Below are positions 3,654 to 60,794 of a stretch of 64,000 bases of DNA, piece after piece. Position 1 is the first letter of the stretch. Each line of letters begins with the position of its first letter. The DNA comes from an uncultured Bdellovibrionales bacterium (lineage in GTDB: Bacteria; Patescibacteriota; Minisyncoccia; Moranbacterales; UBA2206): the NCBI GenBank assembly GCA_964636505.1, contig CAZWRY010000002.1:17248-81247 (forward strand). Reading direction: 5' to 3'. The notes beneath the pieces are model-generated. The model made no database searches. It was not told where the DNA came from and saw only the letters and a list, made by a program, of their open reading frames with translations. The position numbers were made by a program, and so were the translations under genes.

Positions 3654-5042
3654 TTATTCAGAAATTAATTTTACGGTTTCGCTAACCAAACCTTCTATTG
3701 AAATATCCGATTGATTGTCGTTGAATCCATCAGCGGCTACCTTTATTTGATATGTTCCTTTTGCAAGATATGGCAGTGTTGTCGGGAAAAAGGCCAATCC
3801 ATATTTGTCAGTAGTCAGAGTAACGTCATAACCGGCCGTTTCATTTTTTAAATTAACCGAGGCCCCTTCAATAGCAATACTTTCATCGCTGGCTCTGACT
3901 ACTTTAATCAGCAGCGAGTCGGCTGTTTTATCCGCAAAAATTGCCTTGACATCCATTGCTGTATTGGGTGCCAAATCAAACTGGACATTTAAATTCTGTC
4001 CGGGATCAACTTTTATGAATCGGTACTGGCTGGTTGAATCAGAAAAAACAAAAGTGTATGTTCCATAACTCATATTTTCCAGAATTTTTTCTCCCGTTTC
4101 CCCTGAATTGAGATTTTGGTTAAAAGTAAAAAGCTCAACTGAAGGAACATCCAATGTGTCTCCCTGTTTTCTGCCCCCAGAAAGATTAAATCCTATATTT
4201 TTAACTCTGTTACCCAAGGGATCTTCGGTGGTTAAATTTATACTGGAAATCTTGTCCGTTATGACTGCTTTCATATTTAATGTATCTGCAATAACTGAAG
4301 CGTGTATATCTACCGGATTAAAAGTACTTGTCGGATAGGGCGGATAGGTGTTTGCCGAATAATATCCGCTTTTTGAAACTTCCAATGAATAGTTGCGATC
4401 ACCGACTGGCATAGATGGAAGAGAAATATTACCCGTATCATCAGAAGAAACGGTCATATCCACTCCCTCAGATTGATTCTTGATACGGACTTGAGCTTGA
4501 GGTATGCCGTTGCCTGAATTATCTAAAATATTCAAGGCAAGCGTGCCGCCGCCCACGCTTTTTTCAACTCCGATAGGAGAAAAAATAGAAACAAGGAAAA
4601 CGGTTCGGCTTTTCATCGGATCGGTCCCCCAGGCAACTGTTATCTTTACTTCTTTATAATCATTTGGAATCGCATCATTGGGAACCAACCCTTGTTTTCC
4701 ATCATAAGCATCGTCTATGTATTTTATAAAGGTAGAAACATAATAAGTATTGGTATTTTGAATAACTGTTTCTTCGGCCAAAATATCTCCCCGCGGTACA
4801 CTCGTTGTGGTTCCGATGTCATCGTAGTCAAGATTTCTGATTATTTCCATTTTTTCATTCGCCAAAGCAGTCGCTTCTAATTTGAATTTTGATTCTCTGA
4901 TGTATTTGATTCCCAAAATAGCGGTTTGATAAAAACAAACCGCTATCAAGGAAAAAATAAGCAAAACAATCATTGCTTCCACCAATGTAAAACCGGCTGA
5001 AGCTTTTGTTTTTATTTTCCCTCCAAAAAAATGAACAAGCAT
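3654..5042 (-). CDS. Large type IV pilin-like protein (prepilin N-terminus plus Ig-like/carboxypeptidase-regulatory-like repeats).
   Basis: 462 aa; leader ...ASAG|FTLVEAMIVLLIF; repetitive beta-rich C-terminal region. Confidence 0.7.
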   Translation of the reverse strand: MLVHFFGGKIKTKASAGFTLVEAMIVLLIFSLIAVCFYQTAILGIKYIRESKFKLEATALANEKMEIIRNLDYDDIGTTTSVPRGDILAEETVIQNTNTYYVSTFIKYIDDAYDGKQGLVPNDAIPNDYKEVKITVAWGTDPMKSRTVFLVSIFSPIGVEKSVGGGTLALNILDNSGNGIPQAQVRIKNQSEGVDMTVSSDDTGNISLPSMPVGDRNYSLEVSKSGYYSANTYPPYPTSTFNPVDIHASVIADTLNMKAVITDKISSINLTTEDPLGNRVKNIGFNLSGGRKQGDTLDVPSVELFTFNQNLNSGETGEKILENMSYGTYTFVFSDSTSQYRFIKVDPGQNLNVQFDLAPNTAMDVKAIFADKTADSLLIKVVRASDESIAIEGASVNLKNETAGYDVTLTTDKYGLAFFPTTLPYLAKGTYQIKVAADGFNDNQSDISIEGLVSETVKLISE

Positions 5043-10609: not shown

Positions 10610-13459
10610 CTACAGGTATTTCCCCGTCCAGCTTTTTTTGATTTTTTTGAGCTTGTCCGGTGTACCAGCATAAACAACTTCCCCTCCCTGGTCTCCGCCA
10701 TCCGGTCCCAAATCAATGACCCAATCTGAATTCCTGATCACATCTATATTGTGCTCCACGACCACAACCGTATTGCCTTTATCCACTAGCGCGTCTAACA
10801 CGCCTAATAACATTTTAACATCTTCAAAATGAAGACCGATAGTTGGTTCATCCAAAATATAGAGGGTTTGGCCGGTTGATTTTCTGGCCAATTCCGTAGC
10901 CAGCTTTATTCTTTGCGCTTCTCCGCCGGATAAACTTGTGGCGCTTTGACCAAGCTTAAGGTAGCCCAAGCCCACATCCTCAAGAGTTTTTAATTTTTCA
11001 AAAATCAAAGGCGATTTCTTGAAAAATTTTAAAGCATAAGAAACACTCATGTCCAAAACTTCGGCGATATTGGCTCCTTGATATTCAATATCCAAGGTTT
11101 TACGATTATATCTTGTTCCTCCGCATGATTCACATTTAACATACATATCCGGTAGGAGATACATTTCAATTTTTTTTGTTCCTTCTCCTTGACAATTTTC
11201 GCATCGCCCGCCCTTCATGTTAAAACTAAAACGGCTGGCCGTATAGCCTCTTTTTTTAGCTTCCGGCGTTGCCGCGAAAAGATCGCGAATTAAAGAAAAA
11301 ACACCCGTATAAGTAGCCGCGTTTGACCTTGGTGTCCTTCCAATCGGAGTTTGATTAATGTTAATTACTTTATCAATGTTTTTTATGCCATCAATTTTTC
11401 TGTATTTTCCCGGCACATCCTTGGCTCTATAAAAATATTTGGCCAGATATTTAGCCAAGATATCTGAGACTAACGTTGATTTGCCCGATCCGGAAACACC
11501 CGTGATTGAAACAAATTTGCCCAAAGGAATTTCCACATCAATATTTCTCAGGTTATGCTCGCTGGCGCCGGTTATTTTTATGAATTTTTTATTGCCTTTG
11601 CGATATGTCTTTTTATTCACGACTTTTTTGCGGCCGATAATATAGTCGGCTGTAGCTGTTTTTGACTTGAGAAGCTTTTGAAAATCCCCCTGAAAGATAA
11701 CTTCTCCGCCTTCCTCTCCGGCACCGGGACCCATATCAATAATCCAGTCAGCTTTACGGATAATGTCCTCGTCGTGTTCCACAACTATCAAAGAGTTTCC
11801 GCCTTCTCGCAAAGATTGCATGGTCCCAATTAACTTTTCCGTATCCCGATTATGGAGTCCGATAGAAGGCTCGTCCAAAACATAGGTGATGCCGGTAAGT
11901 TCCGCTCCAATTTGAGTTGCCAAACGAATTCTTTGGGCTTCTCCGCCGGAAATCGATTCTGCCCGGCGAGAAAGAGAAAGATAGTCCAAGCCTACATTTA
12001 TCAGCGCTTCGGTTTTTATCAATATTTCTTTAATAATACCGTTGGCAATTTCTTTCTTGTCCGAACTGTCACAAGAAGCTTTGACTTCTTTTAGAAAAGC
12101 CTTTAGCTTTTCTAGATCCAAATTGACCACATCGTCAATTGATTTTTCACCGATCATAACCGCCAGATATTCCTTTTTTAGTCTTTTGCCTTCACAAGCC
12201 GGACAAACTTTTTCCAACATATATTTTTCCAGGTCGCTGCGGACATATTCAGAAGTTGACTCTTCATATTTTTTCTTAAGAATGGCAGCAACGCCTTCAA
12301 AAGGAACTTCAATCTGCTTAAGTCCGCCCATGTCGTTTTTCTGTTCCACTCTGATCTCTTTTTTGTCCGGTCCATAAAAAATAATTTCCAGAGCTTTAGG
12401 TGAAAGTTTTTTGACCGGAACATCAACAGAAAAAGAATATTCCTTAGCCAAAGCCCTCAAAATATTTAGATAATTGCTCTGTCCGCTCAGTCTTCCGTTA
12501 GATTTACTCCAAGGTAAAATGGCTCCTTCTGAAAGGGTCAGGTTTTTATTTGGGATTACTAAATCCAAATCAACTTCTTTGGTAATTCCAAGGCCGGCGC
12601 AATATCCGCAAGCTCCTTCCGGATTGTTAAAAGAAAAGTGTCTGGGAGTTATTTCATTTATCCTGGTTTGACAAGTATGACAAACAAAATCGCGATTAAA
12701 GACTGAATCTCCTTCTTCTTCGGAAAAAACAATAATAGATCCGCCGCCAACTTTCATGGCTGTTTCAATTGAATCCAAGAGCCTTTCTTCATCCTGGTTT
12801 TCACCCCTAATATTGATTCTATCTACCACCACTTCAATGGCCGAGTTAAACTTATCACTCACAATCAGCAAAGCCTCATTGGTTAACATTATCTTTCCAT
12901 CAAATCTGACTCTGGCGTAACCCAAATGACTGATGCTACGCAAAATTTCACGCGAACTTTTGCCTTCTTCTTTTACTTTAGCCATAATAACTACTTGCGA
13001 ATTTTTGGGAAATTTTAAAATTCTTTCTAAAATTTCCTGGTTGGTTTTCTTGGACATAAGTTCTCCGCAAACCGGACAATAAGGCATTCCGATTTTGGAA
13101 AAAAGAATCCTAAGATAATCATAAATTTCCGTAAGTGTTCCAACAGTTGAACGCGGGCTACGACTCAAACTTTTCTGATCAATGGAAATAGTCGGGCTAA
13201 GATTTTCAATTTTATCCATATCCGGCTTAGCCGCTACATCCAAGAATTGCCGGGCATAGGACGACATTCCCTCCAGATATCTGCGATTGCCTTCCGCATA
13301 AACTAAATCAAAGGCTAAAGATGATTTACCTGAACCTGAAAGCCCGGTTACCACCACCAATTGATTGCGAGGAATATCAATATCCACATTTTTCAGATTA
13401 TTGACTCTGGCCCCGCGAATAATTATCTTATCCCTTGAGGAAGAAACTTTTTTTGACAT
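10610..13459 (-). CDS. uvrA: Excinuclease ABC subunit A (UvrA), copy 1.
   Basis: 949 aa; two ABC modules (GLSGSGKSSLAF..., [11 protein letters not shown]), zinc-finger insertions, LSGGEAQRI signatures. Confidence 0.92.
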   Translation of the reverse strand: MSKKVSSSRDKIIIRGARVNNLKNVDIDIPRNQLVVVTGLSGSGKSSLAFDLVYAEGNRRYLEGMSSYARQFLDVAAKPDMDKIENLSPTISIDQKSLSRSPRSTVGTLTEIYDYLRILFSKIGMPYCPVCGELMSKKTNQEILERILKFPKNSQVVIMAKVKEEGKSSREILRSISHLGYARVRFDGKIMLTNEALLIVSDKFNSAIEVVVDRINIRGENQDEERLLDSIETAMKVGGGSIIVFSEEEGDSVFNRDFVCHTCQTRINEITPRHFSFNNPEGACGYCAGLGITKEVDLDLVIPNKNLTLSEGAILPWSKSNGRLSGQSNYLNILRALAKEYSFSVDVPVKKLSPKALEIIFYGPDKKEIRVEQKNDMGGLKQIEVPFEGVAAILKKKYEESTSEYVRSDLEKYMLEKVCPACEGKRLKKEYLAVMIGEKSIDDVVNLDLEKLKAFLKEVKASCDSSDKKEIANGIIKEILIKTEALINVGLDYLSLSRRAESISGGEAQRIRLATQIGAELTGITYVLDEPSIGLHNRDTEKLIGTMQSLREGGNSLIVVEHDEDIIRKADWIIDMGPGAGEEGGEVIFQGDFQKLLKSKTATADYIIGRKKVVNKKTYRKGNKKFIKITGASEHNLRNIDVEIPLGKFVSITGVSGSGKSTLVSDILAKYLAKYFYRAKDVPGKYRKIDGIKNIDKVININQTPIGRTPRSNAATYTGVFSLIRDLFAATPEAKKRGYTASRFSFNMKGGRCENCQGEGTKKIEMYLLPDMYVKCESCGGTRYNRKTLDIEYQGANIAEVLDMSVSYALKFFKKSPLIFEKLKTLEDVGLGYLKLGQSATSLSGGEAQRIKLATELARKSTGQTLYILDEPTIGLHFEDVKMLLGVLDALVDKGNTVVVVEHNIDVIRNSDWVIDLGPDGGDQGGEVVYAGTPDKLKKIKKSWTGKYL

Positions 13460-13604: not shown

Positions 13605-13787
13605 TCTTTCCCAATCAGCCTCAACGGATTCCTCGGACTCCGTTGAGATTTTTTAAATAACCGCTCTTATCATCTTCCTAACCTCCCTCTTGGATTTGGA
13701 TTTGGTTTTTCCCCGTTTTTCCGGGCTCCGGCTCCATTAGCCTCCTTTCTTAGGATTTTTGGCAACTCTCTTTTTATCCTATTTTAC

Positions 13788-15086
13788 TTATTTTGTCAAG
13801 AATTCGCTTTTTCTCATCTTTCTGTGATATCCAATTGCAAAACGATGCGCTTCATCTATGATTCTACCTAATAACTCTCTATCGTCTGCTATTTTTTTAA
13901 AATCATTTGAAAATTCTGTAATTGGAAATTGCTTGCCCGCTGGGCACAGCCAGAGATCAGAAATTAGAAATTGGAAATTGGAAGTTTTTCGTGTAGGACC
14001 CTTGGCAACAGCAATAATCGGAACTTTTATTCCTAAGCTCCTTAATAATTTCTCTGCCATGTTTAAGTGTCCTTGCCCTCCATCCAAGAGAATCAAGTGA
14101 GGCATCGGCCAATCATTTTTAAATCTACGTAGCAGCACCTCTTGCATCATTCCGATATCATTAATGCCCTCAACGGTTCTGATTTTGAATTTTCGGTACT
14201 GAGATTTGTTTGGCTGGCCTCCCTCAAAAACCACCATGGAGCCGACTGCGTTTTTTCCGCTAATATTGGAAATGTCGTACGCTTCAATACGAATAGTTTT
14301 TAGTTTATGTTTTTTAGTTTTTAGATCAATTTCAAAATCTTTTGAAATCAAAGCCACATCACGAATATGATTTAGCGCAAAAACTTTATTTCTTATTTCC
14401 GCCGCCTTTTCAAATTCATGATTCTTGGCTGCTAACTGCATTTCTTTTTCCAGTGTTTTAACCAGATTTTTTTTCTTACCTTCCAAAATCATCTGGATAC
14501 CATGGATATTTTTTTGATAATCTTTGAGAGTAATTGCACCGGCGTGTGGTCCCGGACAAAGTCCCAACTGAAAATCCAAACAGCCTTTTTCGGTTTCCTG
14601 CTTATTGGAATGAAAGGGGAAAATACGGCGAATTATTTTGAGCGCTACCTCCATTTGTTTTTTAAAAGTATATGGACCAAAAGCAGTTCGTAGTTTATAG
14701 TTTTTGGTTTGTAGTTTTTTAAAATCAATTTCCGTTTTTCGTAAAATCAAAACTCGCGAAAATTCTTCTTTAGTAATAACGAAATAGGAAAATGATTTAT
14801 CATCTTTAAGTTCAATGTTATATTTCGGCTGATATTTTTTGATCAAATTGCTTTCCAAAATCAAAGCCTCCAGAACAGAATCAGTCTTTTGAAAGTCAAT
14901 ATCGGCAACTTTCGGCATCATAACTTCAATATGATTTCTGGTTTCCGCGCCCCGAAAGTACGAAGCCACCCGGCTTTTTAAATTAGTTGCTTTTCCAATA
15001 TATAAAATATTTTTGGCTTTATCTTTGAAAATATATACTCCGGGATCTGATGGCAATTTGGCAATTTTTATTTTCATCTTTGACAT
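13788..15086 (-). CDS. uvrC: Excinuclease ABC subunit C (UvrC), short form without the C-terminal HhH2 domain.
   Basis: 432 aa; N-terminal GIY-YIG (PGVYIFKDKAKNILYIGKATNLKSRV), UVR domain (EFEKAAEIRNK), RNase H-like endonuclease region (RIEAYDISNISG...LLDGGQGHL...HRFAIGYHRK). Contains in-frame heptamer-repeat insertions. Confidence 0.85.
   Translation of the reverse strand: MSKMKIKIAKLPSDPGVYIFKDKAKNILYIGKATNLKSRVASYFRGAETRNHIEVMMPKVADIDFQKTDSVLEALILESNLIKKYQPKYNIELKDDKSFSYFVITKEEFSRVLILRKTEIDFKKLQTKNYKLRTAFGPYTFKKQMEVALKIIRRIFPFHSNKQETEKGCLDFQLGLCPGPHAGAITLKDYQKNIHGIQMILEGKKKNLVKTLEKEMQLAAKNHEFEKAAEIRNKVFALNHIRDVALISKDFEIDLKTKKHKLKTIRIEAYDISNISGKNAVGSMVVFEGGQPNKSQYRKFKIRTVEGINDIGMMQEVLLRRFKNDWPMPHLILLDGGQGHLNMAEKLLRSLGIKVPIIAVAKGPTRKTSNFQFLISDLWLCPAGKQFPITEFSNDFKKIADDRELLGRIIDEAHRFAIGYHRKMRKSEFLTK
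13921..13985. repeat. Miniature heptamer-repeat element inside uvrC, in frame: ATTGGAAATTG, a GC-rich hairpin segment, then AGAAATT AGAAATT GGAAATT GGAAG.
   Basis: Shares the 11-mer ATTGGAAATTG and AGAAATT tandem units with the rpoB-rpoC spacer at 60730..60775, and a GGCAAG-containing GC-rich segment with the uvrB insertion at 21855..21880. Confidence 0.7.
14295..14324. repeat. AGTTTTT-type heptamer tandem array (4 units) inside uvrC.
   Basis: AGTTTTT AGTTTAT GTTTTTT AGTTTTT; a second array lies at 14685..14720. Confidence 0.6.
14685..14720. repeat. AGTTTWT heptamer tandem array (5 units) inside uvrC.
   Basis: AGTTCGT AGTTTAT AGTTTTT GGTTTGT AGTTTTT; encodes the Lys-rich KKLQTKNYKL segment. 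Confidence 0.6.
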
Positions 15087-15938: not shown

Positions 15939-18824
15939 TTATTTTTTCAAAACATCCCCGAGATATTTAGCAGTGTAACTTTCCTTTTGATATTTGATAA
16001 TTTCTTCCGGCGTTCCGCTTACAATGACTCGCCCGCCTTGCTCTCCGCCTTCCGGTCCCAAATCAATAATCCAGTCAGCTGTTTTGATAATGTCCATATT
16101 GTGCTCAATAACCACCACGGTATTGCCGGCATCAACTAATTTATTAAGTACGCCTAAAAGTTTTTTAATGTCATCAAAATGAAGACCCGTCGTCGGCTCA
16201 TCTAAAATATACAGCGTGTTTCCGGTTGAACGGCGCGCCAGTTCTGTGGCTAATTTTATCCTTTGCGCTTCTCCGCCGGAAAGAGTTGTGGCTGATTGGC
16301 CCAAATGAATATAGTCCAGTCCGACTTCTTCCAAAATTTTAAGCTTGTCATGAATTTCTGGAAAATTTTCAAAGAAAATTTTGCCTTCTGAAACCGTCAT
16401 TTCCAAAACATCGGCAATATTTTTACCTTTATATTTTACTTTCAGAGTTTCACTGTTGTATCTTTTGCCTTTGCAGACATCGCAAGGCAAATAAACGTCT
16501 GGCATAAACTGCATTTCAATTTTCAAAAATCCTTCGCCTTGGCAATTTTCACATCTTCCCCCATTTACATTAAAGGAGAATCTCCCTGGCAAATATCCCT
16601 TGGCTTTAGCATCTTTAGTTTTGGCAAAAAGTTCTCTGATCGGAGAAAAAAGCCCTGTGTAAGTGGCAGGATTAGAACGCGGAGTGCGACCGATTGGAGA
16701 TTGATCAATCATAATTACTTTATTGACATGTTGCGACCCAATTATTTCCGAATGTTTCCCTGGACGATCCAATGATCGCATTATCTTTGAAGCTAAAGAT
16801 TTATACAAAACATCTTCTACTAGAGTTGATTTTCCTGATCCGGAAACTCCAGTCACAACAGTCAAAACTTTGAGTGGAAATTCCACGGTAATATTTTTTA
16901 GATTATTTTCTCTAGCTCCACGCACCACAATCATTTTTTTATTTTTAATCGGACGACGAAAACTGGGGACTTCAATTTTTTCTTCACCACTAAGATATCT
17001 GGCCGTTAAAGATTTTTTGCTTTTCATCACTTCTTGAGGAGAACCTTCGGCCACAATTTCTCCGCCCGCTTTACCTGCGCCTGGACCAATATCAACTAAA
17101 TAATCCGCAGCTCTAATCGTTTCCTCATCATGTTCAACCACAATCAAAGTATTTCCGATATCACGTAAATCCAAAAGTGTTTTTAATAATTTTTTATTAT
17201 CCCGCGCATGCAGACCGACTGATGGCTCATCCAAAATATATAAAACTCCGACTAATTGCGATCCGATTTGAGAAGCCAAACGAATTCTTTGCGTCTCTCC
17301 TCCAGCCAAAGTGGCCGCTGATCTTCCCAGCGTTAAGTATCCAAGGCCAACATTATCCAAAAATCCCAAACGCGCTTCAATTTCTTTCAAAATTCTGCCC
17401 GCAATCAAATCTTCTTTTTTGCTGAGTTTTAATTTTTTGAAAAAATCCAAAGCTTCACTCACACCGACGGTAGAAACTTCGTAGATATTCTTCCCGCTAA
17501 CGGTCACCAGCAAAGCTTCCTTCTTGTATCTTGAGCCATGGCAAACCGAACAAGGATTTTGCGACATATATTTTTCAATGTCTTTTCTCACTCCATCTGA
17601 ATCAGTTTTTGCGTAGCGATCTTCCAAATATCCGGTTATGCCCCGCCAATTCAAATTATATTTCCAAACCGAACCGGTTTTACTGCGCAAAGTTACCGGA
17701 ACTTCTTCGGCTTCTTCTGCCGAAATCGGACAATAAGCATTTTCTTCGCCATAGAGCAAAATATTCAAATTTTCTTGGGATAAATCTCTGATACGAACAT
17801 TATCTTTGATATGAAAATGATTGGTCACCGCTCGTAGAATCGTGCCTTGCCAATTATTTTTTTTGTAGCTCCAAGGCATTATTCCGCCCTCGGCAATCGT
17901 TTTGTTTTTATCAGGAATCACCAAATTAATACCCATTTCTTTTTTAGTTCCCAATCCCTCACAAACCGGACAAGCCCCATAAAGAGAGTTAAAAGAAAAA
18001 AGTCTCGGTTCCATTTCCGGAAAATTTATTTCGTCATGAACCGGACAAGATAATTTTTGATTAAAAATAAGTTCCGCTTCTTTTTGCTTCCTATCTCTTG
18101 TTCCTTGTTTCTTTATTTTCACCAGCCCATCCGACAACTTCAAGGCCTTTTCAGTATCTTCAAAAATACGAGGAATATTTTCATCACTAATAGCCATCGT
18201 ATCCACTACAACATCAATTGTGTGTTTTTTGTATCTATCTAAAGTTATTTTTTCTTTAGGATTAAGCTCAACTTTTTTGCCATTAACATAGGCTTTGGAA
18301 TAACCGCGGCGATACATATCCAAAAGAAGGGCTGAGTATTCACCTTTGCGTCCGCGTACAATCGGACTCAGAATTTCAATTTCTTTTTTATCGCCGACAC
18401 TTAAAATACGATCCACAATTTCATCCGTGGAAAGCTTGGTTATTTCTCGTCCACAAATCGGACAATGAGGAATACCAATTTTGGCATAAAGCAAACGCAA
18501 ATAATCATGAATCTCTGTCACCGTTCCGACAGTTGACCTCGGATTATGCGAAGCTGATTTTTGATCAATAGAAATTGCCGGCGAAAGACCCTCAATGTAG
18601 TCCACATTTGGTTTGTCCATTTGCCCCAAAAATTGCCGAGCGTAACTGGACAAACTTTCCAAATATCGTCTCTGGCCTTCGGCAAAAATAGTATCAAAAG
18701 CTAGCGTTGATTTTCCGCTACCGGAAATCCCCGTAAATACAACAAATTTATTGCGCGGCAAATTCAGATTTATATTCTTAAGGTTATGCTCTCTCGCCCC
18801 GCGAATGATGATTTCGTCTTTCAT
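15939..18824 (-). CDS. uvrA: Excinuclease ABC subunit A paralogue (UvrA, copy 2), full length.
   Basis: 961 aa; same architecture as copy 1 ([23 protein letters not shown], zinc fingers) but clearly diverged in sequence. Confidence 0.9.
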
Positions 18825-21090: not shown

Positions 21091-23142
21091 TCATTTTACC
21101 TTCAATTTTCGTAACTCGGAGATTTCATCGCGAATAATAGCCGCACTTTCAAACTGAAGACTGCGAGCCGCTTCTTTCATATCCTTTTCTCTTTGCTTAA
21201 TATACCCCGCAATGTTTTCCAGGCTTTCCAAATTGACAAATTCTTTGGAAATTTCCGGTTTGATTTCATGATCCACAATAGATTGAATTTTTTTCTGAAT
21301 AGTCTGAGGAGTAATGTGATGCTTTTTATTATACTCAGCTTGAATTTTTCTTCGGCGATTGGTTTCATCAATCGCTCGCTTCATTGAACCGGTAATTTGA
21401 TCGGCATACAAAATAACCCGCCCGGAAACATTTCTGGCCGCACGTCCGATTGTTTGAATAAGTGAAGTTTCACTGCGCAAAAATCCTTCCTTATCCGCAT
21501 CCAAAACCGCTACTAATTTAACTTCCGGCAAATCCAGTCCTTCACGCAATAAGTTTACTCCAACCAGAACATCAATTTCCCCCCGACGCAATTTTTCCAA
21601 AATTCTGACCCGATCCAAGGTTTCCACATTAGAATGCAAATATTCCGCTTTGATTTTATTTTCCTTTAAGAAATCGGATAAATCTTCGGCCATTTTTTTG
21701 GTAAGCGTCGTAATTAAAACTCGACCATTATCCTCCACTACTTTTCCAATTTCAATTAAAACATCTTTGACTTGTCCTTGGGTTGATTTTATCGCGAGCT
21801 CAGGATCAATGAGACCTGTTGGACGAATAACTTGCTCCACAATACCGTATTTTGCATCTTGCCTACCGGCGAGACAGATATTTTTTAATTTGTTTTTAAT
21901 TTGCGATTTGGAATTTATTTGGAATTTAGAATTTAGAATTTGTGATTTGATATATTCATACGGCCCAGGTGTCGCTGAAGTAAAAATTACCTGGTTTGTT
22001 TTTTCTTCAAATTCAGAAAATCTGAGCGGACGATTTTCATAGGCACTGGGCAAACGAAAACCATTATCAATCAAAGCGGTCTTGCGAGCCCGATCACCAT
22101 TAAACATGGCATTCAGCTGCGGCACGGTCACATGCGATTCATCAATGACCAAAAGATAGTCTTTATTAAAGTAATCCATCAATGTATATGGCGGTTCGCC
22201 TTTTTTTCTTTCAGTCAAATACAAAGAATAATTTTCAATACCATTGCAATAGCCGACTTCGCGCATCATTTCAATGTCCTGCTTGGTTCTTCTTTTCAAT
22301 CTTTCCGCTTCCAATAATTTATTTTCTTTTTTCAAATAAGCGACTCTGCCTCGCATCTCTATCTCTATCCTTTTTAATGCTTCTTCCATCAAGCCTTCAG
22401 GAACCACAAAATGTTTGGCTGGATAAATCAAAGTTTGTTTCAAGGTTCCCAGCTCTTCACCGGTCAAAAAATCATATTCCACAATTTTCTTTACCCTGCC
22501 CTTTTCAGCATTAATTCTGGTCACAATTTCGCGATCTGTCGGCATAATTTCCAATGTTTCACCGGTAAGTCTGAATTTGCCGCGGCTAAGCAATTCGCTT
22601 CTTTGAAACTGCATATCAATCAACTCTTTTATTTTTTCTTCTCGTTTGAATTCTTCGCCCACTTTTACTTCAAAACTGATATCCCGATAAAAATCCGGCG
22701 AACCCAAACCATAGATACAAGAAACAGAAGCCACAATAATCACATCACTCCGTGAAAGCAAGGCGGAAGTTGAAGCATGGCGCAAACGATCAATTTCATC
22801 ATTAATCTGCGCCTCTTTTTCAATATATGTGTCCGAAGAAGCGATGTAGGCTTCCGGCTGATAATAGTCATAGTAAGAAACAAAATATTCCACCGCATTC
22901 TTGGGAAAAAACACGCGAAATTCTTGCGCCAATTGGGCTGCCAAAGTTTTGTTGGGCGCAATCACCAAGGTTGGTTTTTGTACTTTTTCAATGACATTGG
23001 CAATTGTGAAAGTTTTACCCGATCCCGTCACACCCAAAAGCGTCTGGAATTTTTGTCCCTTTTTGAGTCCTTCCGTCAGCTTTTTAATCGCCTCTGGCTG
23101 ACTTCCGGCCGGTTTAAATTTTTTATTCAGAATAAATTTCAT
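21091..23142 (-). CDS. uvrB: Excinuclease ABC subunit B (UvrB) carrying an in-frame insertion of about 28 aa.
   Basis: 683 aa; helicase motifs (GVTGSGKT, DESH), beta-hairpin region, C-terminal UVR domain (FESAAIIRDEI). The insertion YIKSQILNSKFQINSKSQIKNKLKNICLAGRQDAKYG lies between ...SATPGPYE and IVEQVIRPTGL. Confidence 0.92.
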   Translation of the reverse strand: MKFILNKKFKPAGSQPEAIKKLTEGLKKGQKFQTLLGVTGSGKTFTIANVIEKVQKPTLVIAPNKTLAAQLAQEFRVFFPKNAVEYFVSYYDYYQPEAYIASSDTYIEKEAQINDEIDRLRHASTSALLSRSDVIIVASVSCIYGLGSPDFYRDISFEVKVGEEFKREEKIKELIDMQFQRSELLSRGKFRLTGETLEIMPTDREIVTRINAEKGRVKKIVEYDFLTGEELGTLKQTLIYPAKHFVVPEGLMEEALKRIEIEMRGRVAYLKKENKLLEAERLKRRTKQDIEMMREVGYCNGIENYSLYLTERKKGEPPYTLMDYFNKDYLLVIDESHVTVPQLNAMFNGDRARKTALIDNGFRLPSAYENRPLRFSEFEEKTNQVIFTSATPGPYEYIKSQILNSKFQINSKSQIKNKLKNICLAGRQDAKYGIVEQVIRPTGLIDPELAIKSTQGQVKDVLIEIGKVVEDNGRVLITTLTKKMAEDLSDFLKENKIKAEYLHSNVETLDRVRILEKLRRGEIDVLVGVNLLREGLDLPEVKLVAVLDADKEGFLRSETSLIQTIGRAARNVSGRVILYADQITGSMKRAIDETNRRRKIQAEYNKKHHITPQTIQKKIQSIVDHEIKPEISKEFVNLESLENIAGYIKQREKDMKEAARSLQFESAAIIRDEISELRKLKVK
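21845..21952. repeat. Miniature heptamer-repeat element inside uvrB, in frame: a GC-rich segment plus a GGAATTT / AGAATTT tandem array.
   Basis: GATTTGGAATTTATTTGGAATTTAGAATTTAGAATTTGTGATTTG plus GCCTACCGGCGAGACAG; the encoded ICLAGRQ parallels LCPAGKQ encoded by the uvrC element. Confidence 0.65.
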
Positions 23143-44112: not shown

Positions 44113-45279
44113 TTGCAATCCTCGCTTAAATGTCTATTTTCACTGCTAATTATTATTTTCAACATTATGACAAAAATACTCTACCAAAATGAGCAAAGAA
44201 AACGGGAATTTCTCGAGCATTTGAAAGGTGCGGAAGGTTTCTCTGAAAGCTCCATCAATACCTTTGCTGAAGCCGTAGACCAATGGCAGATTTTCACCGA
44301 AAACGATGACTTTGCTAATTTCAACAAGTCAAAGGCTCTATCTTTTCGAGACTGGCTGAAAACTAGAAAATCCAACACTGAAAACGGCACAATTTCACTG
44401 GTAACACAATATAACTATCTTCGCCGAGTAAAAAGATTTTTCACTTGGCTAGCGGGGCAACCAGTTTATAAAAACAAAATTTTAAAGAATGACGTGGAAT
44501 TTTTACGCCTTTCTAAGGGAGATGCCCGCATAGCTCGCCAAGGCACGACCAAGCAAATGCCCACTTTTGAAGAAGCAAGGGCAATAATTGAAAGCATAGC
44601 GATAAAAAACGAAATAGATATGCGAGACCGAGCATTTATCTCCTTTATTCTTACTACTGGTATTCGCATTCACGCCGCCGCAACCTTGCGAATGAAAAGT
44701 TTTGACGCGAAAAACAGACTGATAGACCAAAATCCGGCAGACGGTATAAAAACCAAAAATTCAAAACGGATACTAACCACTTTCTTTCCTATAGGCTGGG
44801 ATGAACCGGAAAAATATTTTTTGGAATGGTTTGATTATTTAAAATCAAAAGGTTTCCGGCCAGATGACCCGATTTTTCCAGCTACACTAAATAATTTGAT
44901 TTCTGGAAGACAAGCTTACAGCCAAAATTCAATCGGCAGAAATTTTTGGAGCGGCACGAGCGGTGCAAGAAAAATTTTTGAGAAAAGATGTAAAAATGCT
45001 GACCTGCCATATTTTCATCCACATTCTTTCCGCCATTTGGTAGTTAACATTTTGAGTAAAACCCGTCTCACAGAAGAAGAGAAACGGGCCATAAGTCTTA
45101 ACCTTGGGCACGCCAATGTCGGCACGACTTTTGGTTCATATGGCTATGGAAGTATGACTGAAGATGACGCAGTCAAAATAGTGCAGAAATTGAAAGCAAC
45201 CAATCAAGACGGGAGCAATTTAGTCCTTTCAGATGATGAAAGAGCTGTTTTTGAGCGAGTTATAAATAGAATTTTATAA
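44113..45279 (+). CDS. Tyrosine-type site-specific recombinase/integrase. The true start is probably the ATG at 44167 (MTKILYQNEQ...).
   Basis: 388 aa; N-terminal SAM-like core-binding domain; catalytic R...HSFRH...LGHANVGTTFGSYGY (R-H-R-Y). Confidence 0.8.
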   Translation: MQSSLKCLFSLLIIIFNIMTKILYQNEQRKREFLEHLKGAEGFSESSINTFAEAVDQWQIFTENDDFANFNKSKALSFRDWLKTRKSNTENGTISLVTQYNYLRRVKRFFTWLAGQPVYKNKILKNDVEFLRLSKGDARIARQGTTKQMPTFEEARAIIESIAIKNEIDMRDRAFISFILTTGIRIHAAATLRMKSFDAKNRLIDQNPADGIKTKNSKRILTTFFPIGWDEPEKYFLEWFDYLKSKGFRPDDPIFPATLNNLISGRQAYSQNSIGRNFWSGTSGARKIFEKRCKNADLPYFHPHSFRHLVVNILSKTRLTEEEKRAISLNLGHANVGTTFGSYGYGSMTEDDAVKIVQKLKATNQDGSNLVLSDDERAVFERVINRIL

Positions 45280-45543: not shown

Positions 45544-45723
45544 ATGGAATTTCTCACACTTGAACAAGTGGCTAAATACTTTGGAGTTCATCCTCGCACC
45601 GTTATGCGTTGGCTTAAGCAAGGCAGTCTCAAAGGTTATAAGTTGGGCAAAGGCAAAACGGCTCTTTTACGCATCCCCAAATCAGAAGTAAGTAAATTTT
45701 TAGAAAAACATAAAATCAAATGA
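45544..45723 (+). CDS. Excisionase / MerR-like HTH DNA-binding small protein; its stop overlaps the recombinase start (ATGA).
   Basis: 59 aa, below the ORF-track cutoff: MEFLTLEQVAKYFGVHPRTVMRWLKQGSLKGYKLGKGKTALLRIPKSEVSKFLEKHKIK; helix-turn-helix_17-like. Confidence 0.55.
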   Translation: MEFLTLEQVAKYFGVHPRTVMRWLKQGSLKGYKLGKGKTALLRIPKSEVSKFLEKHKIK

Positions 45724-48517: not shown

Positions 48518-48564
48518 GAAATGTTTTGTTTCATGTTTCATGTTCTATGTTTTATGAGTGTATG
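48518..48564 (+). repeat. NNNNATG heptamer ladder (CATGTT units) ending at the rpsF start codon.
   Basis: ATG triplets at 48521, 48533, 48540, 48547, 48554 and 48562 (spacing 12,7,7,7,8); the last is the S6 start. Confidence 0.65.
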
Positions 48565-49993: not shown

Positions 49994-50038
49994 TATTTTC
50001 ATGTTATATGTTCCATGTTTTATGTTTCATGAATTATG
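49994..50038 (+). repeat. Perfect 7-nt NNNNATG ladder of six units ending at the efp start codon.
   Basis: ATG at 50001, 50008, 50015, 50022, 50029 and 50036, each exactly 7 nt apart; the last is the efp start. Confidence 0.7.
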
Positions 50039-50593
50039 TTAGGTATAAGTGAAATAAAAACAGGAAAAAACATCATTTTAAATAAAGAACCCTTCGCGGT
50101 TCTTTACCACGAACATTCTAAAACAGGCCGTGCTGGATCCGTTCTCAGAACCAGACTTCGCAACCTCTTAACAGGTGCTGTCTTGGAAAAAACATTTCAA
50201 GGCGCCGAACAAGTTACCGAAGCTGATATTACAAAATCCAAAGCTCAATTTCTCTATAAAGAAAAAGAGGTCTATTCTTTTATGGATACGGAAAACTACG
50301 ACCAATTTTCTCTTTCGTCTGAAACTTTGGGCGATGCCGTAAATTATTTAATTGAAGGCACGGAGGTCTCAGTTTTGAATTTCAATGGCAACCCGATCAA
50401 CATTGAATTGCCGGTTAAGATAAGCTTGGAAGTTATGGAAGCTCCACCCGGAATAAAAGGCAACACTGTTTCTACTGGCGGAAAAGTTGTAACTCTGCAA
50501 ACCGGACTCAAGATTTCTGCACCTCTTTTCATTAACCAAGGCGATGTCATCATCGTAAACACAGAGCGAGGAGAATATGTCGGGCGAGCCTGA
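50036..50593 (+). CDS. efp: Elongation factor P.
   Basis: 185 aa; KOW-like N-domain and two OB domains; GKG region; ...RGEYVGRA C-terminus. Confidence 0.85.
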   Translation: MLGISEIKTGKNIILNKEPFAVLYHEHSKTGRAGSVLRTRLRNLLTGAVLEKTFQGAEQVTEADITKSKAQFLYKEKEVYSFMDTENYDQFSLSSETLGDAVNYLIEGTEVSVLNFNGNPINIELPVKISLEVMEAPPGIKGNTVSTGGKVVTLQTGLKISAPLFINQGDVIIVNTERGEYVGRA

Positions 50594-50894
50594 ATCATAG
50601 AACATGCGCAACATAAAACATGCCTGCCCGCTAACGCGGGACGCAACCATGGAAACATACAACGGACTTGTTTAATTTTCTGCAATATTTTTCATCTCTT
50701 ATTTAAAGAAAAAGCCGAGCTTTGAAAAATTTTTCTCTTAAATATAAACAAAAAAACTCTGAACCAATCAGAGTTTTATTTTTATTTTCTATTTTTAAAA
50801 TATCCTTAAGCTTATTTCAATAATCTTTTTTTATTATTGTAAATATTTTTACCTCTATTATTGTTTCAAAAAAGCTTTTTGATATTTTGTTCTT

Positions 50895-60640: not shown

Positions 60641-60780
60641 ATTATAAATAAATTTTCAAATCTCAATTTTCAATTTTCAATCAATGATCAATTTTCAATT
60701 TTTTAATTTCAAAAATTTAGTCATTGAATCATTGGAAATTGTTTAGAAATTAGAAATTAGAAATTAGAAATTTGTTAATC
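60641..60780. repeat. AT-rich heptamer tandem arrays (TCAATTT x about 5, then ATTGGAAATTG plus AGAAATT x4) filling the rpoB-rpoC spacer.
   Basis: Direct reading; shares the 11-mer ATTGGAAATTG and AGAAATT units with the uvrC-internal element. Confidence 0.75.
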
Positions 60781-60794
60781 AAAAAATTCATTGC

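What the first reader, a model, noticed from the sequence alone, without database searches (positions are those of the whole stretch)
13921..13985. Miniature heptamer-repeat element inserted in frame inside uvrC
A 65-nt module (ATTGGAAATTG, a GC-rich mini-hairpin GCCCGCTGGGC, then AGAAATT/GGAAATT x4) sits inside the UvrC coding frame without interrupting it. It encodes TSNFQFLISDLWLCPAGKQFPIT, which falls in a loop that is variable relative to E. coli UvrC (between the AKG and HxxAIGxHRK blocks). The same 11-mer and heptamer units recur in the rpoB-rpoC spacer. A related element with a cognate GC-rich segment (encoding ICLAGRQ against LCPAGKQ here) is inserted in frame in uvrB. This resembles the in-frame-tolerated Rickettsia palindromic elements, a behaviour not described for a Patescibacteria-like genome.
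Basis: partly seen in the sequence, partly recalled or inferred. Interest (0 to 1): 0.7.

Follow-up and report, generated by a model that had tools for sequence, protein, structure and literature searches.

The report
Translated heptamer-repeat element inside uvrC
A loop of the DNA-repair gene uvrC in this tiny-genome (Patescibacteria) bacterium is built from one arm of an AT-rich repeat element made of 7-base units, later split by a small GC-rich hairpin. Relatives of that element sit between genes in other Patescibacteria, which recalls the selfish "palindromic elements" translated inside Rickettsia proteins.

Summary
Window 13921-13986 holds ATTGGAAATTG, a 24-nt GC-rich piece (13935-13958) and four RGAAATT units, all in frame in uvrC.

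The module is not a 65-nt unit that recently inserted.
- The AT-rich heptamer part sits at the same UvrC loop in most of 120 Moranbacteria orthologs (56-70% identity), and it keeps its 7-base periodicity at the DNA level.
- Only the 24-nt GC piece (DLWLCPAG) is specific to this lineage.

With that piece removed, the module matches (E = 5.5e-4) a profile built from five ~110-130-nt intergenic quasi-palindromes whose arms are heptamer arrays. One of the five is the window's rpoB-rpoC spacer. Four of the five fold far better than shuffles.

Period-7 arrays are the dominant tandem repeat in 2 Mb of Patescibacteria DNA: 98 arrays, against 20 or fewer for every other period except 14 (57). uvrC is their hot spot, at 11 times the density of other coding DNA.

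The GC piece shares TGCYTGCCCGCT with a hairpin inside another heptamer array at 50621.

The "cognate" uvrB core is not statistically similar, although uvrB does carry a real 31-aa insert.

Best reading: an old, translated half-copy of a dispersed heptamer-armed palindromic element with a nested mini-hairpin. It behaves like an RPE but is not one. Mobility is inferred, not shown.

The parts
13788..15086 (-). uvrC, 432 aa (GIY-YIG, UVR and RNase H-like domains; no C-terminal HhH domain). This is the host gene.
   Evidence: ORF; Pfam; PDB UvrC matches.
13921..13934 (-). Arm 'leader' ATTGGAAATTGCTT. The family consensus is TTGGRAATT(G/T)TTT, placed directly before the array.
   Evidence: The same leader precedes (RGAAATT)n in the window spacer (60731-60744), L006, L007, L086 and L036.
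13935..13958 (-). Lineage-specific 24-nt GC-rich quasi-palindromic insert. It encodes DLWLCPAG and contains the hairpin GCCCGCTGGGC (13935-13945). Together with 13930-13934 it forms the motif TGCTTGCCCGCT.
   Evidence: Absent from orthologs that read ...FLIS|KQFPI.... A clean 15-nt counterpart is present in L086 and absent in L007. Motif recurrence. pLDDT below 50 at residues 377-387.
13959..13986 (-). Heptamer array AGAAATT AGAAATT GGAAATT GGAAGTT. On the coding strand it reads ..TCCAATTTCCAATTTCTAATTTCT and encodes SNFQFLIS.
   Evidence: TRF; period scan; the orthologous arrays keep their periodicity in L006, L007, L036, L086-L093.
14294..14324 (-). Second, degenerate period-7 array in uvrC (TAGTTTT x4.4; encodes DLKTKKHKLKT just before RIEAYD). 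This is hypervariable linker 'site 2'.
   Evidence: pLDDT below 50 at residues 250-262; other genomes carry different heptamer units at the same site.
14691..14719 (-). Third, degenerate period-7/14 array in uvrC (encodes KLQTKNYKLRT before FGPYT). This is hypervariable linker 'site 1'.
   Evidence: The site ranges from 23 to 63 aa among 120 orthologs.
21850..21942 (-). In-frame insert of about 31 aa in uvrB (QILNSKFQINSKSQIKNKLKNICLAGRQDAK). It consists of RGAATTT heptamers, the leader TTGGAATTTATTT and the GC piece CTTGCCTACCGGCGAGACAG (21858-21877).
   Evidence: Boundaries are uncertain by a few codons. It is not a significant profile match.
60641..60794 (.). rpoB-rpoC spacer filled by a degenerate full-length copy of the heptamer-armed quasi-palindrome. 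Left arm (AATTTTC)n at 60651-60683; right arm ATTGGAAATTGTTT(AGAAATT)4 at 60731-60772.
   Evidence: nhmmer E = 3.6e-17, but the copy was a seed of the profile. The fold is not better than shuffles (z = -0.28).
50596..50662 (+). Intergenic array of a second heptamer family (AACATRR, i.e. ATGTTTY on the other strand), split by the GC hairpin TGCCTGCCCGCTAACGCGGGAC (50621-50642), 28 nt downstream of efp.
   Evidence: efp identified.
49997..50040 (+). ATGTTTY heptamer array directly upstream of efp. A sister array at 48527-48556 lies upstream of rpsF.

Best explanation
**What it is.** The 65-nt module is a composite of two layers of repetitive DNA that are translated as part of UvrC.

**Layer 1: one arm of a dispersed element.**
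- It is about 45-50 nt: a leader followed by (RGAAATT)n, read from the opposite strand as (AATTTCY)n.
- It belongs to a dispersed, AT-rich quasi-palindromic element family of Patescibacteria. The two arms of a full element are inverted arrays of a heptanucleotide repeat.
- Full copies (about 110-130 nt) fill short spacers between co-directional genes. The window's rpoB-rpoC spacer is one.
- Single arms sit in frame in permissive linkers of housekeeping proteins, above all in three linkers of UvrC.
- The copy in this UvrC loop is old. It is shared by most Moranbacteria, and part of it now supplies a beta-strand (FLIS) of the RNase H-like domain.
- Its 7-base periodicity is kept or regenerated at the DNA level while the peptide drifts.

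**Layer 2: a nested GC-rich mini-hairpin.**
- It is a 24-nt insert between leader and array.
- It belongs to a loose class of 15-40-nt GC hairpins, several of which begin TGCYTGCCCGC. These repeatedly land inside heptamer arrays.
- In coding DNA only inserts that are multiples of three and free of stops survive.

**How it works.** Neither layer is likely to serve UvrC. Both are tolerated because they fall in a disordered surface loop.

**Shown:** the anatomy, orthology at the site, DNA-level periodicity, family membership by profile, palindromic folding of the intergenic copies, presence or absence at orthologous sites, and the uvrC hot spot.

**Inferred:** that copies spread by transposition-like movement or gene conversion, and that replication slippage maintains the arrays.
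For: **The AT part is orthologous**
- Of 120 UvrC orthologs, most carry NFQF[LP]IS-x-QFPI-type peptides between AKG and DEAHRF; a minority has a 46-aa form without it.
- The DNA of L006, L007, L036, L086, L087, L090, L091 and L093 shows near-perfect heptamers there (AATTTCC, AATTTCT, CAATTTT, AAATTCC). The encoded peptide changes with the unit.

**Same DNA, different reading frames**
- CGGGCARGCAATTTCC is read as GQAIS in L086 and as GKQFP in the window.

**The family is real**
- (RGAAATT)n arrays share a non-array leader, and intergenic copies occur as inverted pairs.
- Five intergenic copies from five genomes align.
- Four of them fold as long DNA hairpins with z = -3.5 to -6.6 and 0 of 200 shuffles as good.
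- An nhmmer profile of the five hits uvrC copies in L007 (2.3e-5), L006 site 3 (3.9e-4), L006 site 1 (6.3e-4) and L087 (5e-4).
- A reversed-database control gives 1 hit at E <= 10, against 39 in the forward search.
- The window's uvrC module scores E = 5.5e-4 once the 24 nt are removed, and 1.2 with them.
- The non-array signature AATAAAAT-NCC-RAAT recurs in uvrC site 1 (L006), in uvrC site 3 (L007, L086) and in intergenic copies (L094, L106).
- The window spacer and L006 uvrC share a 26-mer.

**Gain and loss**
- The orthologous uvrA to next-gene spacer is 151 nt with the element in L036, 74 nt without it in L087 and 20 nt without it in the window.
- L086 differs from L007 by a clean 15-nt hairpin insert at a heptamer boundary. 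The arrays at the two other uvrC linkers are replaced wholesale, while the flanks are about 88% identical.

**Genome-wide pattern**
- In 2.0 Mb of non-redundant loci there are 98 period-7 arrays and 57 of period 14, against 20 or fewer for any other period and about 1 in shuffles.
- Arrays in one locus share an identical unit 8.2% of the time; arrays in different loci do so 1.0% of the time.
- Arrays per 10 kb: uvrC 1.83, non-coding 1.30, other coding 0.17; p = 1.7e-17 for uvrC.

**The GC hairpin class**
- TGCYTGCCCGCT occurs twice in the window, both times inside heptamer arrays, against 0.22 expected.
- The related TGCYTGCCCG(C) motif occurs in L036 and L086 uvrC and in L094 and L153 hairpins.

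**The loop is permissive**
- pLDDT is below 50 at residues 377-387.
Against: - No transposase, terminal inverted repeats or target-site duplications were found, so mobility is not demonstrated.
- The profile signal rests largely on the arrays themselves, which are low-complexity AT-rich DNA. The non-array leader is short.
- Only 64 kb of this genome was available: one full copy, one half copy and one doubtful relative. The copy number per genome is unknown.
- The window's own full copy no longer folds (z = -0.28).
- The uvrB module does not match the profile.
- The GC inserts have no other significant copies in 2.3 Mb apart from the short shared motif. That motif was defined after seeing the first cases.
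- The count of arrays in uvrC is inflated by shared ancestry of the three linker sites.
Confidence: 0.55

Rival explanations
1. Purely local simple-sequence repeat. The heptamers arose and are maintained in place by replication slippage, which is known to favour 7-nt units in many bacteria. The resemblance to the rpoB-rpoC spacer, to uvrB and to other genomes would then be convergence of AT-rich, stop-free heptamers. There would be no element family and no movement.
For: - Heptameric SSRs are over-represented in many bacterial genomes. A polymerase-slippage explanation has been proposed (Mrazek 2007, as cited in PMC4692102).
- Period 7 dominates in all Patescibacteria clades sampled, with many different units.
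- Arrays at the same uvrC linker carry unrelated units in close relatives.
- An SSR copy-number change (the hexamer TTGGAT) is the only indel among strains of this genome.
- There are no TIRs or TSDs.
Against: - Units are shared within a locus eight times more often than between loci.
- The non-array leader and the AATAAAAT-NCC-RAAT signature are conserved at non-homologous sites and in different genomes.
- The inverted-pair architecture is conserved and folds significantly.
- Profile hits stand against a clean reversed-database control.
- An orthologous spacer shows presence and absence of the element.
Confidence: 0.22
2. A unitary 65-nt miniature mobile element (11-mer, GC hairpin and four heptamers) inserted as one piece into uvrC in this lineage, and a cognate copy inserted into uvrB.
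For: - The module is compact and in frame, and parts of it recur in the spacer and in uvrB.
- uvrB does have a lineage-specific 31-aa insert.
Against: - Orthologs at 56-70% identity already have the AT-rich part at this site. Only 24 nt is new.
- No second copy of the 65-mer exists in the window or in 2.3 Mb of relatives.
- The GC cores of uvrC and uvrB are not significantly similar.
- The module does not fold.
Confidence: 0.05
3. A functional cis-element. The heptamer tracts in uvrC would be contingency (phase-variation) switches that turn nucleotide excision repair on and off by unit gain or loss. Alternatively they would be binding sites or uptake signals for a DNA- or RNA-binding factor.
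For: - uvrC is enriched 11-fold over other coding DNA and even exceeds non-coding DNA.
- Periodicity persists at the DNA level across deep divergence.
- Heptamer tracts are phase-variation devices in Haemophilus (papers listed).
Against: - The units are imperfect and only 3-4 copies long.
- None of 150 uvrC loci is frameshifted.
- Five strain-level assemblies have identical tracts.
- Units differ between genomes and between sites, so a single binding factor is unlikely.
- No over-represented uptake-like k-mer exists in the window.
- No Rfam family, promoter or terminator signal was found.
Confidence: 0.08
4. Protein-level adaptation. The segment is a selected UvrC loop or linker peptide, and the DNA repeat is a by-product of codon bias for an N/F/Q/I/S-rich peptide.
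For: - The peptide NFQF[LP]IS is widespread among orthologs.
- Part of it is modelled as a beta-strand (372-376). Canonical UvrC proteins have a loop of 40 aa or more here.
Against: - When the unit changes, the peptide changes (KFQISNSKSIQNSKFKIQNF in L091; NFQFSIF in L090) while the period-7 DNA structure stays.
- Homologous DNA is read in different frames in L086 and in the window.
- The same DNA occurs in a non-coding spacer.
- Loop length ranges widely, from 41 to 65 aa.
Confidence: 0.05

Closest known systems
Rickettsia palindromic elements (RPEs; Ogata et al. 2000, summarised in PMC10969869)
   Same: - Short non-autonomous repeats occur both in intergenic DNA and in frame within unrelated housekeeping genes.
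- They are translated as extra peptide segments at structurally permissive positions.
- The full copies are palindromic.
- The hosts have reduced genomes.
   Different: - RPEs are about 150 bp, belong to defined sequence families with a conserved encoded peptide, and insert as whole palindromes. Here the coding copies are single arms of about 50 nt.
- Here the arms are tandem heptamers, so the encoded peptide depends on frame and unit.
- The sequences are unrelated and the phylum is different.
- Many copies per genome have not been shown here.
Heptanucleotide SSRs: cyanobacterial STRR repeats (Mazel et al. 1990), GGGAATC/GGGGAYT repeats of Xanthomonas and Nostoc (PMC4692102), and the general excess of heptameric SSRs in bacteria (Mrazek et al. 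2007)
   Same: - Tandem 7-nt units are the dominant SSR class.
- Unit families are genome-specific and occur at many loci.
- Most copies are intergenic, and some form inverted pairs that can make hairpins.
- Length and sequence turn over quickly between relatives.
   Different: - Those repeats are G-rich, under-represented in coding regions and not reported as translated parts of conserved proteins.
- Here the units are AT-rich and uvrC is a hot spot.
- Here the arrays carry a conserved leader and centre, which makes them look like an element rather than a bare SSR.
Small dispersed repeats (SDRs) of Nostoc (Elhai et al. 2008, Genome Res 18:1484; reference confirmed, content recalled from memory)
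   Same: - Very small (about 20-30 nt) hairpin-forming inserts can be the only difference between otherwise matching sequences.
- They are often nested inside other repeats.
   Different: - SDR families have many near-identical copies per genome.
- The GC inserts here share only a 10-12-nt motif (TGCYTGCCCGC) and are otherwise unique in the data held.
REP/REPIN elements and yeast mitochondrial GC clusters / byp elements
   Same: - These are GC-rich short palindromes in an AT-rich background.
- GC clusters can sit inside coding sequence (from memory).
   Different: - REPs are extragenic and are mobilised by RAYT transposases. No such gene was looked for beyond 10 ORFs.
- byp elements are bypassed by the ribosome, whereas the insert here is simply translated.

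Membership tests
Rickettsia palindromic element (RPE) | Length of about 100-150 bp, inserted as a whole unit | tested here: not met
   The uvrC copy is about 50 nt of arm plus a 24-nt nested insert. Full copies of 110-130 nt are seen only between genes.
Rickettsia palindromic element (RPE) | Palindromic sequence able to fold into a long hairpin | tested here: not met
   The uvrC module folds no better than shuffles (z = 0.16 and 0.70). The feature is met only by intergenic relatives (z = -3.5 to -6.6).
Rickettsia palindromic element (RPE) | In-frame insertion in protein-coding genes without disrupting them | tested here: met
   uvrC and uvrB ORFs are intact with all domains. The insert lies in a low-confidence loop.
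Rickettsia palindromic element (RPE) | Sequence similarity to an RPE family and occurrence in Rickettsia | not tested
   No RPE sequences were available to compare. The host is a Moranbacteria-like Patescibacterium and the heptamer-array arms have no counterpart in descriptions of RPEs (PMC10969869).
MITE | Terminal inverted repeats and target-site duplication | tested here: not met
   No TSD flanks the 24-nt insert or the 15-nt insert of L086; the number of heptamer units is unchanged between L007 and L086. The arms of the full copies are inverted arrays rather than discrete TIRs.
Heptanucleotide SSR (STRR-like) | Tandem 7-nt units present at several loci with genome-specific units | tested here: met
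Heptanucleotide SSR (STRR-like) | Predominantly intergenic and avoided in coding DNA | tested here: inconclusive
   Non-coding DNA has 1.30 arrays per 10 kb against 0.17 in ordinary coding DNA, but uvrC has 1.83.
Phase-variation (contingency) SSR locus | Unit-number polymorphism giving frameshifted on/off alleles | tested here: not met
   None of 150 uvrC loci is frameshifted. Five assemblies of this strain are identical. Minor alleles within populations could not be tested.
REP/REPIN | Many near-identical GC-rich palindromes per genome, extragenic, with an associated RAYT transposase | tested here: not met
   The GC inserts are unique apart from a 10-12-nt motif, and this one is intragenic. 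The 10 ORFs scanned include a serine recombinase and a tyrosine integrase but no Y1 transposase. The rest of the window was not scanned.

The most novel reading that the evidence does not exclude
Patescibacteria harbour a previously undescribed family of AT-rich palindromic elements whose arms are heptanucleotide arrays, with nested TGCYTGCCCGC-type GC mini-hairpins. These elements move or convert between intergenic spacers and the linkers of housekeeping proteins, with UvrC as a long-standing hot spot. There they are translated in whichever frame they land and have even been built into a beta-strand. This would be a second, independent case, after Rickettsia RPEs, of selfish repeats creating protein segments, here in a phylum with minimal genomes.
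Probability: 0.4. Interest if true: 0.7.

Novelty: new variant of a known kind. Interest (0 to 1): 0.58.

Why it matters
If this reading holds, it shows that ultra-small Patescibacteria genomes still carry and tolerate selfish or self-renewing repeat DNA inside essential repair genes. It also shows that such DNA is a recurrent source of new loop and linker sequence in conserved proteins.

Practical consequences:
- These repeats explain much of the puzzling length variation of Patescibacteria UvrC (403-487 aa among close orthologs).
- They warn annotators that these segments are repeat-derived.
- They provide a tractable system: three linkers of one gene, hundreds of genomes. With it one could ask how period-7 arrays are generated and homogenised. 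The excess of heptameric repeats in bacteria was noted in 2007, and a 2015 paper (PMC4692102) still found no detailed study of it.

Tried and rejected
- **RNA or DNA structure of the module.** It folds no better than shuffles, so a structured RNA was rejected. Rfam finds nothing in the window.
- **Homology of the uvrC and uvrB GC cores.** The local alignment is not significant. The pattern CTTGCC..ACAG was post hoc and only weakly unexpected.
- **DNA-uptake-sequence idea.** No strongly over-represented 7-, 8- or 10-mer was found in the window.
- **Phase-variation idea.** No frameshifted uvrC occurs among 150 loci and there is no tract variation among strains.
- **A multi-copy GC hairpin family in the window.** The 18 GC-rich patches found are unrelated, and blastn of seven GC inserts against 2.3 Mb found no further copies.
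- **Promoter or terminator function in the rpoB-rpoC spacer.** The scan gave nothing above chance.
- **IMG/VR scan for (GAAATTR)4.** Hits came from contigs of 19-68% GC and are mostly unrelated tandem repeats. This did not help with copy number.
- **Literature.** Searches for repeats of this kind in Patescibacteria/CPR found nothing relevant. Mrazek 2007 and Elhai 2008 are not held in the library.
- **Technical failures.** One script timed out, one produced no output because of blastn options, and one fold call exceeded the length limit.
Full report
**1. The observation**

The window is 37.6% G+C. The best UvrC relatives are from Candidatus Moranbacteria / Patescibacteria.

uvrC is the 432-aa ORF 13788-15086 on the minus strand. 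It has GIY-YIG, UVR and RNase H-like domains.

On the plus strand the module reads:
- ATTGGAAATTG at 13921-13931
- CTT
- GCCCGCTGGGCACAGCCAGAGATC at 13935-13958
- AGAAATT AGAAATT GGAAATT GGAAGTT at 13959-13986

It is translated without interruption as TSNFQFLISDLWLCPAGKQFPIT. Five independent assemblies encode exactly this protein.

The repeat is far from chance:
- The heptamer 22-mer has 5 matches against 0.03 expected.
- A scan for self-similarity at periods 4-13 finds arrays only at period 7. There are four: uvrC, uvrB (21914-21950) and two in the rpoB-rpoC spacer.

Two things are weaker than stated:
- The hairpin has only 4-5 bp, and the module folds no better than shuffles.
- The "cognate" GC segment of uvrB is not significantly similar to that of uvrC.

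**2. The AT-rich part is old at this site; only 24 nt is new**

I aligned 120 UvrC orthologs of 56-70% identity.
- Most carry NFQF[LP]IS-x-QFPI(T/S)KFSN or close variants between the AKG and DEAHRF blocks (the 52-aa form).
- A minority has a 46-aa form.
- The query equals the 52-aa form plus eight residues, DLWLCPAG.

The peptide NFQFPIS is simply (AATTTCC)3 translated. Ortholog DNA shows that this is a property of the DNA, not of codon choice:
- L007 has TCAATTTCCAATTTCCAATTTCCAAT.
- L006 has TCTAATTTCAAATTTCTAATTTCTAAACAATTTCC.
- L090 uses CAATTTT and L091 uses AAATTCC/AAATCTC. In both the peptide differs, but the period-7 structure is intact.

Homologous DNA is even read in different frames. 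...CGGGCAGGCAATTTCCAAT gives G-Q-A-I-S-N in L086, and ...CGGGCAAGCAATTTCCAAT gives (A)G-K-Q-F-P-I in the window.

That test is not triggered. However, the idea of a recently inserted 65-nt unit fails.

**3. The heptamer arm belongs to a dispersed palindromic family**

I oriented all (RGAAATT)n arrays in 2 Mb of related loci. They share a leader..GTCATTGA..TTGGRAATT(G/T)TTT. The intergenic ones come as inverted pairs 80-100 nt apart.

Five such spacers align:
- window rpoB-rpoC
- L036, downstream of uvrA
- L094
- L106, downstream of a tRNA-synthetase-like gene
- L097, between two other genes

The consensus is (CTAATTT)n-AATAAAAT-NCC-AAATGTCT...centre...GTCATT..TTGGGAATTT-TT-(AGAAATT)n.

Four of the five fold as long DNA hairpins, with z = -3.5 to -6.6 and 0 of 200 shuffles as good. 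The window's own copy is degenerate (z = -0.28).

An nhmmer profile of the five finds uvrC copies:

| Target | E-value |
|---|---|
| L007 uvrC | 2.3e-5 |
| L006 uvrC site 3 | 3.9e-4 |
| L006 uvrC site 1 | 6.3e-4 |
| L087 uvrC | 5e-4 |

A reversed-sequence control gives one hit at E <= 10, against 39 in the forward search.

The window's uvrC module scores only E = 1.2 as it stands. It scores 5.5e-4 once the 24-nt GC piece is removed in silico.

Outside the arrays, three shared stretches argue for common descent rather than convergence of bare microsatellites:
- The signature AATAAAAT-NCC-RAAT recurs in uvrC site 1 (L006), in uvrC site 3 (L007, L086) and in intergenic copies (L094, L106).
- The window spacer and L006 uvrC share AATTTCTAATTTCTAAACAATTTCCA, 26 of 26.
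- The uvrB insert shares the 13-mer TTGGAATTTATTT with the L036 leader. Its unit is RGAATTT, however, and it is not a significant profile hit. I treat it as a probable but unproven relative.

**4. Gain, loss and turnover**

The orthologous spacer between uvrA and the next gene differs between genomes. The flanking proteins are 56-64% identical.

| Genome | Spacer length | Element |
|---|---|---|
| L036 | 151 nt | present |
| L087 | 74 nt | absent |
| window | 20 nt | absent |

L007 and L086 have uvrC flanks that are about 88% identical.
- At the AKG..DEAHRF loop they differ only by a clean 15-nt hairpin, CCTGGCCGGGCAGGC, inserted at a heptamer boundary.
- At the other two uvrC linkers the arrays are replaced wholesale: AAATACC against GGAAATT/ATACGAA, and AAATACC plus CATGGAA against GTCATCA.
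- L007 also carries REP-like palindromes in frame.

Arrays within one locus share an identical unit 8.2% of the time. Arrays in different loci do so 1.0% of the time.

These data fit copying or conversion between sites plus rapid local turnover. They do not identify the mechanism. No TIRs or TSDs were seen.

**5. The wider phenomenon**

In 150 non-redundant Patescibacteria loci (2.0 Mb), period-7 arrays number 98 and period-14 arrays 57. Every other period gives 20 or fewer, and shuffled sequence gives about 1.

Density per 10 kb:

| Region | Arrays per 10 kb |
|---|---|
| uvrC | 1.83 |
| non-coding | 1.30 |
| uvrA | 0.35 |
| uvrB | 0.28 |
| other coding | 0.17 |

The uvrC excess over other coding DNA has p = 1.7e-17. 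The uvrC events are not independent, because three linker sites are inherited.

Those three sites are:
- after the GIY-YIG domain (before FGPYT)
- before RIEAYD
- the AKG..DEAHRF loop

They range over 23-63, 27-65 and 41-65 aa among orthologs. They are filled with heptamer-encoded and hairpin-encoded peptides.

The window's uvrC has degenerate arrays at the first two sites as well (14691-14719 and 14294-14324).

An AlphaFold model gives pLDDT below 50 for residues 250-262 and 377-387. It places FLISD (372-376) in a beta-strand. So the GC insert sits in a floppy loop, while part of the heptamer-encoded peptide does structural duty.

Other hosts of in-frame arrays include PolA, DnaX, ArgRS, a P-type ATPase and a sugar isomerase.

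**6. The GC piece**

The 24-nt insert is unique as a whole. Its start, TGCTTGCCCGCT, recurs exactly (with Y at position 4) at 50621. That site is 28 nt downstream of efp and lies inside an array of a different heptamer family, ATGTTTY. There are 2 matches against 0.22 expected.

The related motif TGCYTGCCCG(C) occurs beside heptamer arrays at the same uvrC loop in L036 and L086, and in hairpins of L094 and L153.

Other close pairs of genomes show in-frame GC-hairpin indels of 12, 18, 33 and 39 nt.

I read this as a loose class of tiny GC hairpins that repeatedly land in AT-rich arrays. The class is defined post hoc and needs whole genomes for confirmation.

**7. What it is not**

- No Rfam family matches.
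- The spacer has no promoter or terminator signal above chance.
- The window has no uptake-sequence-like k-mer excess.
- None of 150 uvrC loci is frameshifted, and the strains do not vary at the tracts.

A regulatory, uptake or phase-variation role is therefore unsupported, though minor alleles could not be examined.

**8. Comparison with what is known**

- **Heptameric SSRs.** They are known to be over-represented in many bacteria and were tentatively ascribed to polymerase slippage. They are best described as STRR repeats in cyanobacteria and as GGGAATC repeats in Xanthomonas. Those are G-rich and avoid coding DNA (PMC4692102).
- **RPEs.** In-frame translated palindromic repeats are the hallmark of Rickettsia RPEs: about 150 bp, ten families, many copies inside ORFs (PMC10969869).
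- **The present case.** It combines the two. The palindrome's arms are heptamer arrays, the coding copies are single arms, the reading frame is free, and a second layer of mini-hairpins is nested inside.
- **Membership.** It fails the RPE tests for size, whole-palindrome insertion and folding. It also fails the MITE, REP and contingency-locus tests.
- **Literature.** Searches found no description of such repeats in Patescibacteria.

**9. Verdict**

The best explanation (confidence about 0.55) is an ancient, translated half-copy of a dispersed heptamer-armed palindromic element with a nested, lineage-specific 24-nt GC hairpin, tolerated in a disordered UvrC loop.

The main rival (about 0.22) is purely local slippage with convergent sequence.

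Novelty: a new variant of known kinds. Interest: moderate to fairly high (0.58).

Noticed in passing
window 13788-15086; loci L006-L165: Patescibacteria UvrC is short (about 403-487 aa) and lacks the C-terminal (HhH)2 domain of E. coli and Bacillus UvrC. Several sources name it only 'GIY-YIG nuclease family protein'.
   Followed up: no
window 10610-13459 and 15939-18824: Two uvrA paralogs (949 and 961 aa) flank uvrC. They are about 66% identical at the DNA level over some stretches.
   Followed up: no
window 13690-13709: The hexamer SSR (TTGGAT)n in the uvrA-uvrC spacer is the only indel among strain-level assemblies of this genome. L002 and L004 have one more unit than the window.
   Followed up: partly
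window 48527-48556, 49997-50040, 50596-50662: A second heptamer family (ATGTTTY) lies upstream of rpsF, upstream of efp and, inverted, downstream of efp. The last copy is split by the hairpin TGCCTGCCCGCTAACGCGGGAC.
   Followed up: partly
window 44113-45279 and 45720-47360: A tyrosine integrase and a large serine recombinase lie side by side, which may mark an integrated element. They sit next to ychF, rpsF, ssb, efp and recA.
   Followed up: no
L036 5400-5500 (uvrB loop): A run of about 100 N sits exactly at the UvrB SATP..RPTG loop, where other genomes carry repeat inserts. It may be a scaffold gap caused by the repeat or a masked stretch.
   Followed up: no
L007 10270-10350 and 10480-10590 (uvrC): REP-like GC palindromes are translated in frame: GTCATCCCGAACTCGTTTCAGGATC...GATGCTGAAACAAGTTCAGCATGAC, and GTCATCCCGCACTTGATGCGGG...GGATTCCCGCCTACGCGGGAATGAC. 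Both are absent from the close relative L086.
   Followed up: partly
L166 3520-3760 and L185 (IMG/VR contigs, 55% G+C): A 78-nt tandem unit is itself a heptamer-armed hairpin (GGACATTGGAAATTGGAAACTGGAAATTCGGG...CCCAATTTCTAATTTCTAATTTCT). It occurs in putative viral contigs of much higher G+C than the Patescibacteria.
   Followed up: no
L054 vs L057 (about 89% identical Paceibacteria-like loci): In-frame GC-hairpin indels of 12, 18, 33 and 39 nt, for example CCCCGAAGGGAAGAATACTTCCTACGGGGCAGG, distinguish close relatives. Small hairpin insertions therefore seem general in these genomes.
   Followed up: partly
window 4540-4559: A strong GC hairpin followed by a T-run (AAGCGTGCCGCCGCCCACGCTTTTTTTC) lies on the plus strand inside a minus-strand ORF (3654-5042). 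It looks like a terminator on the antisense strand.
   Followed up: no
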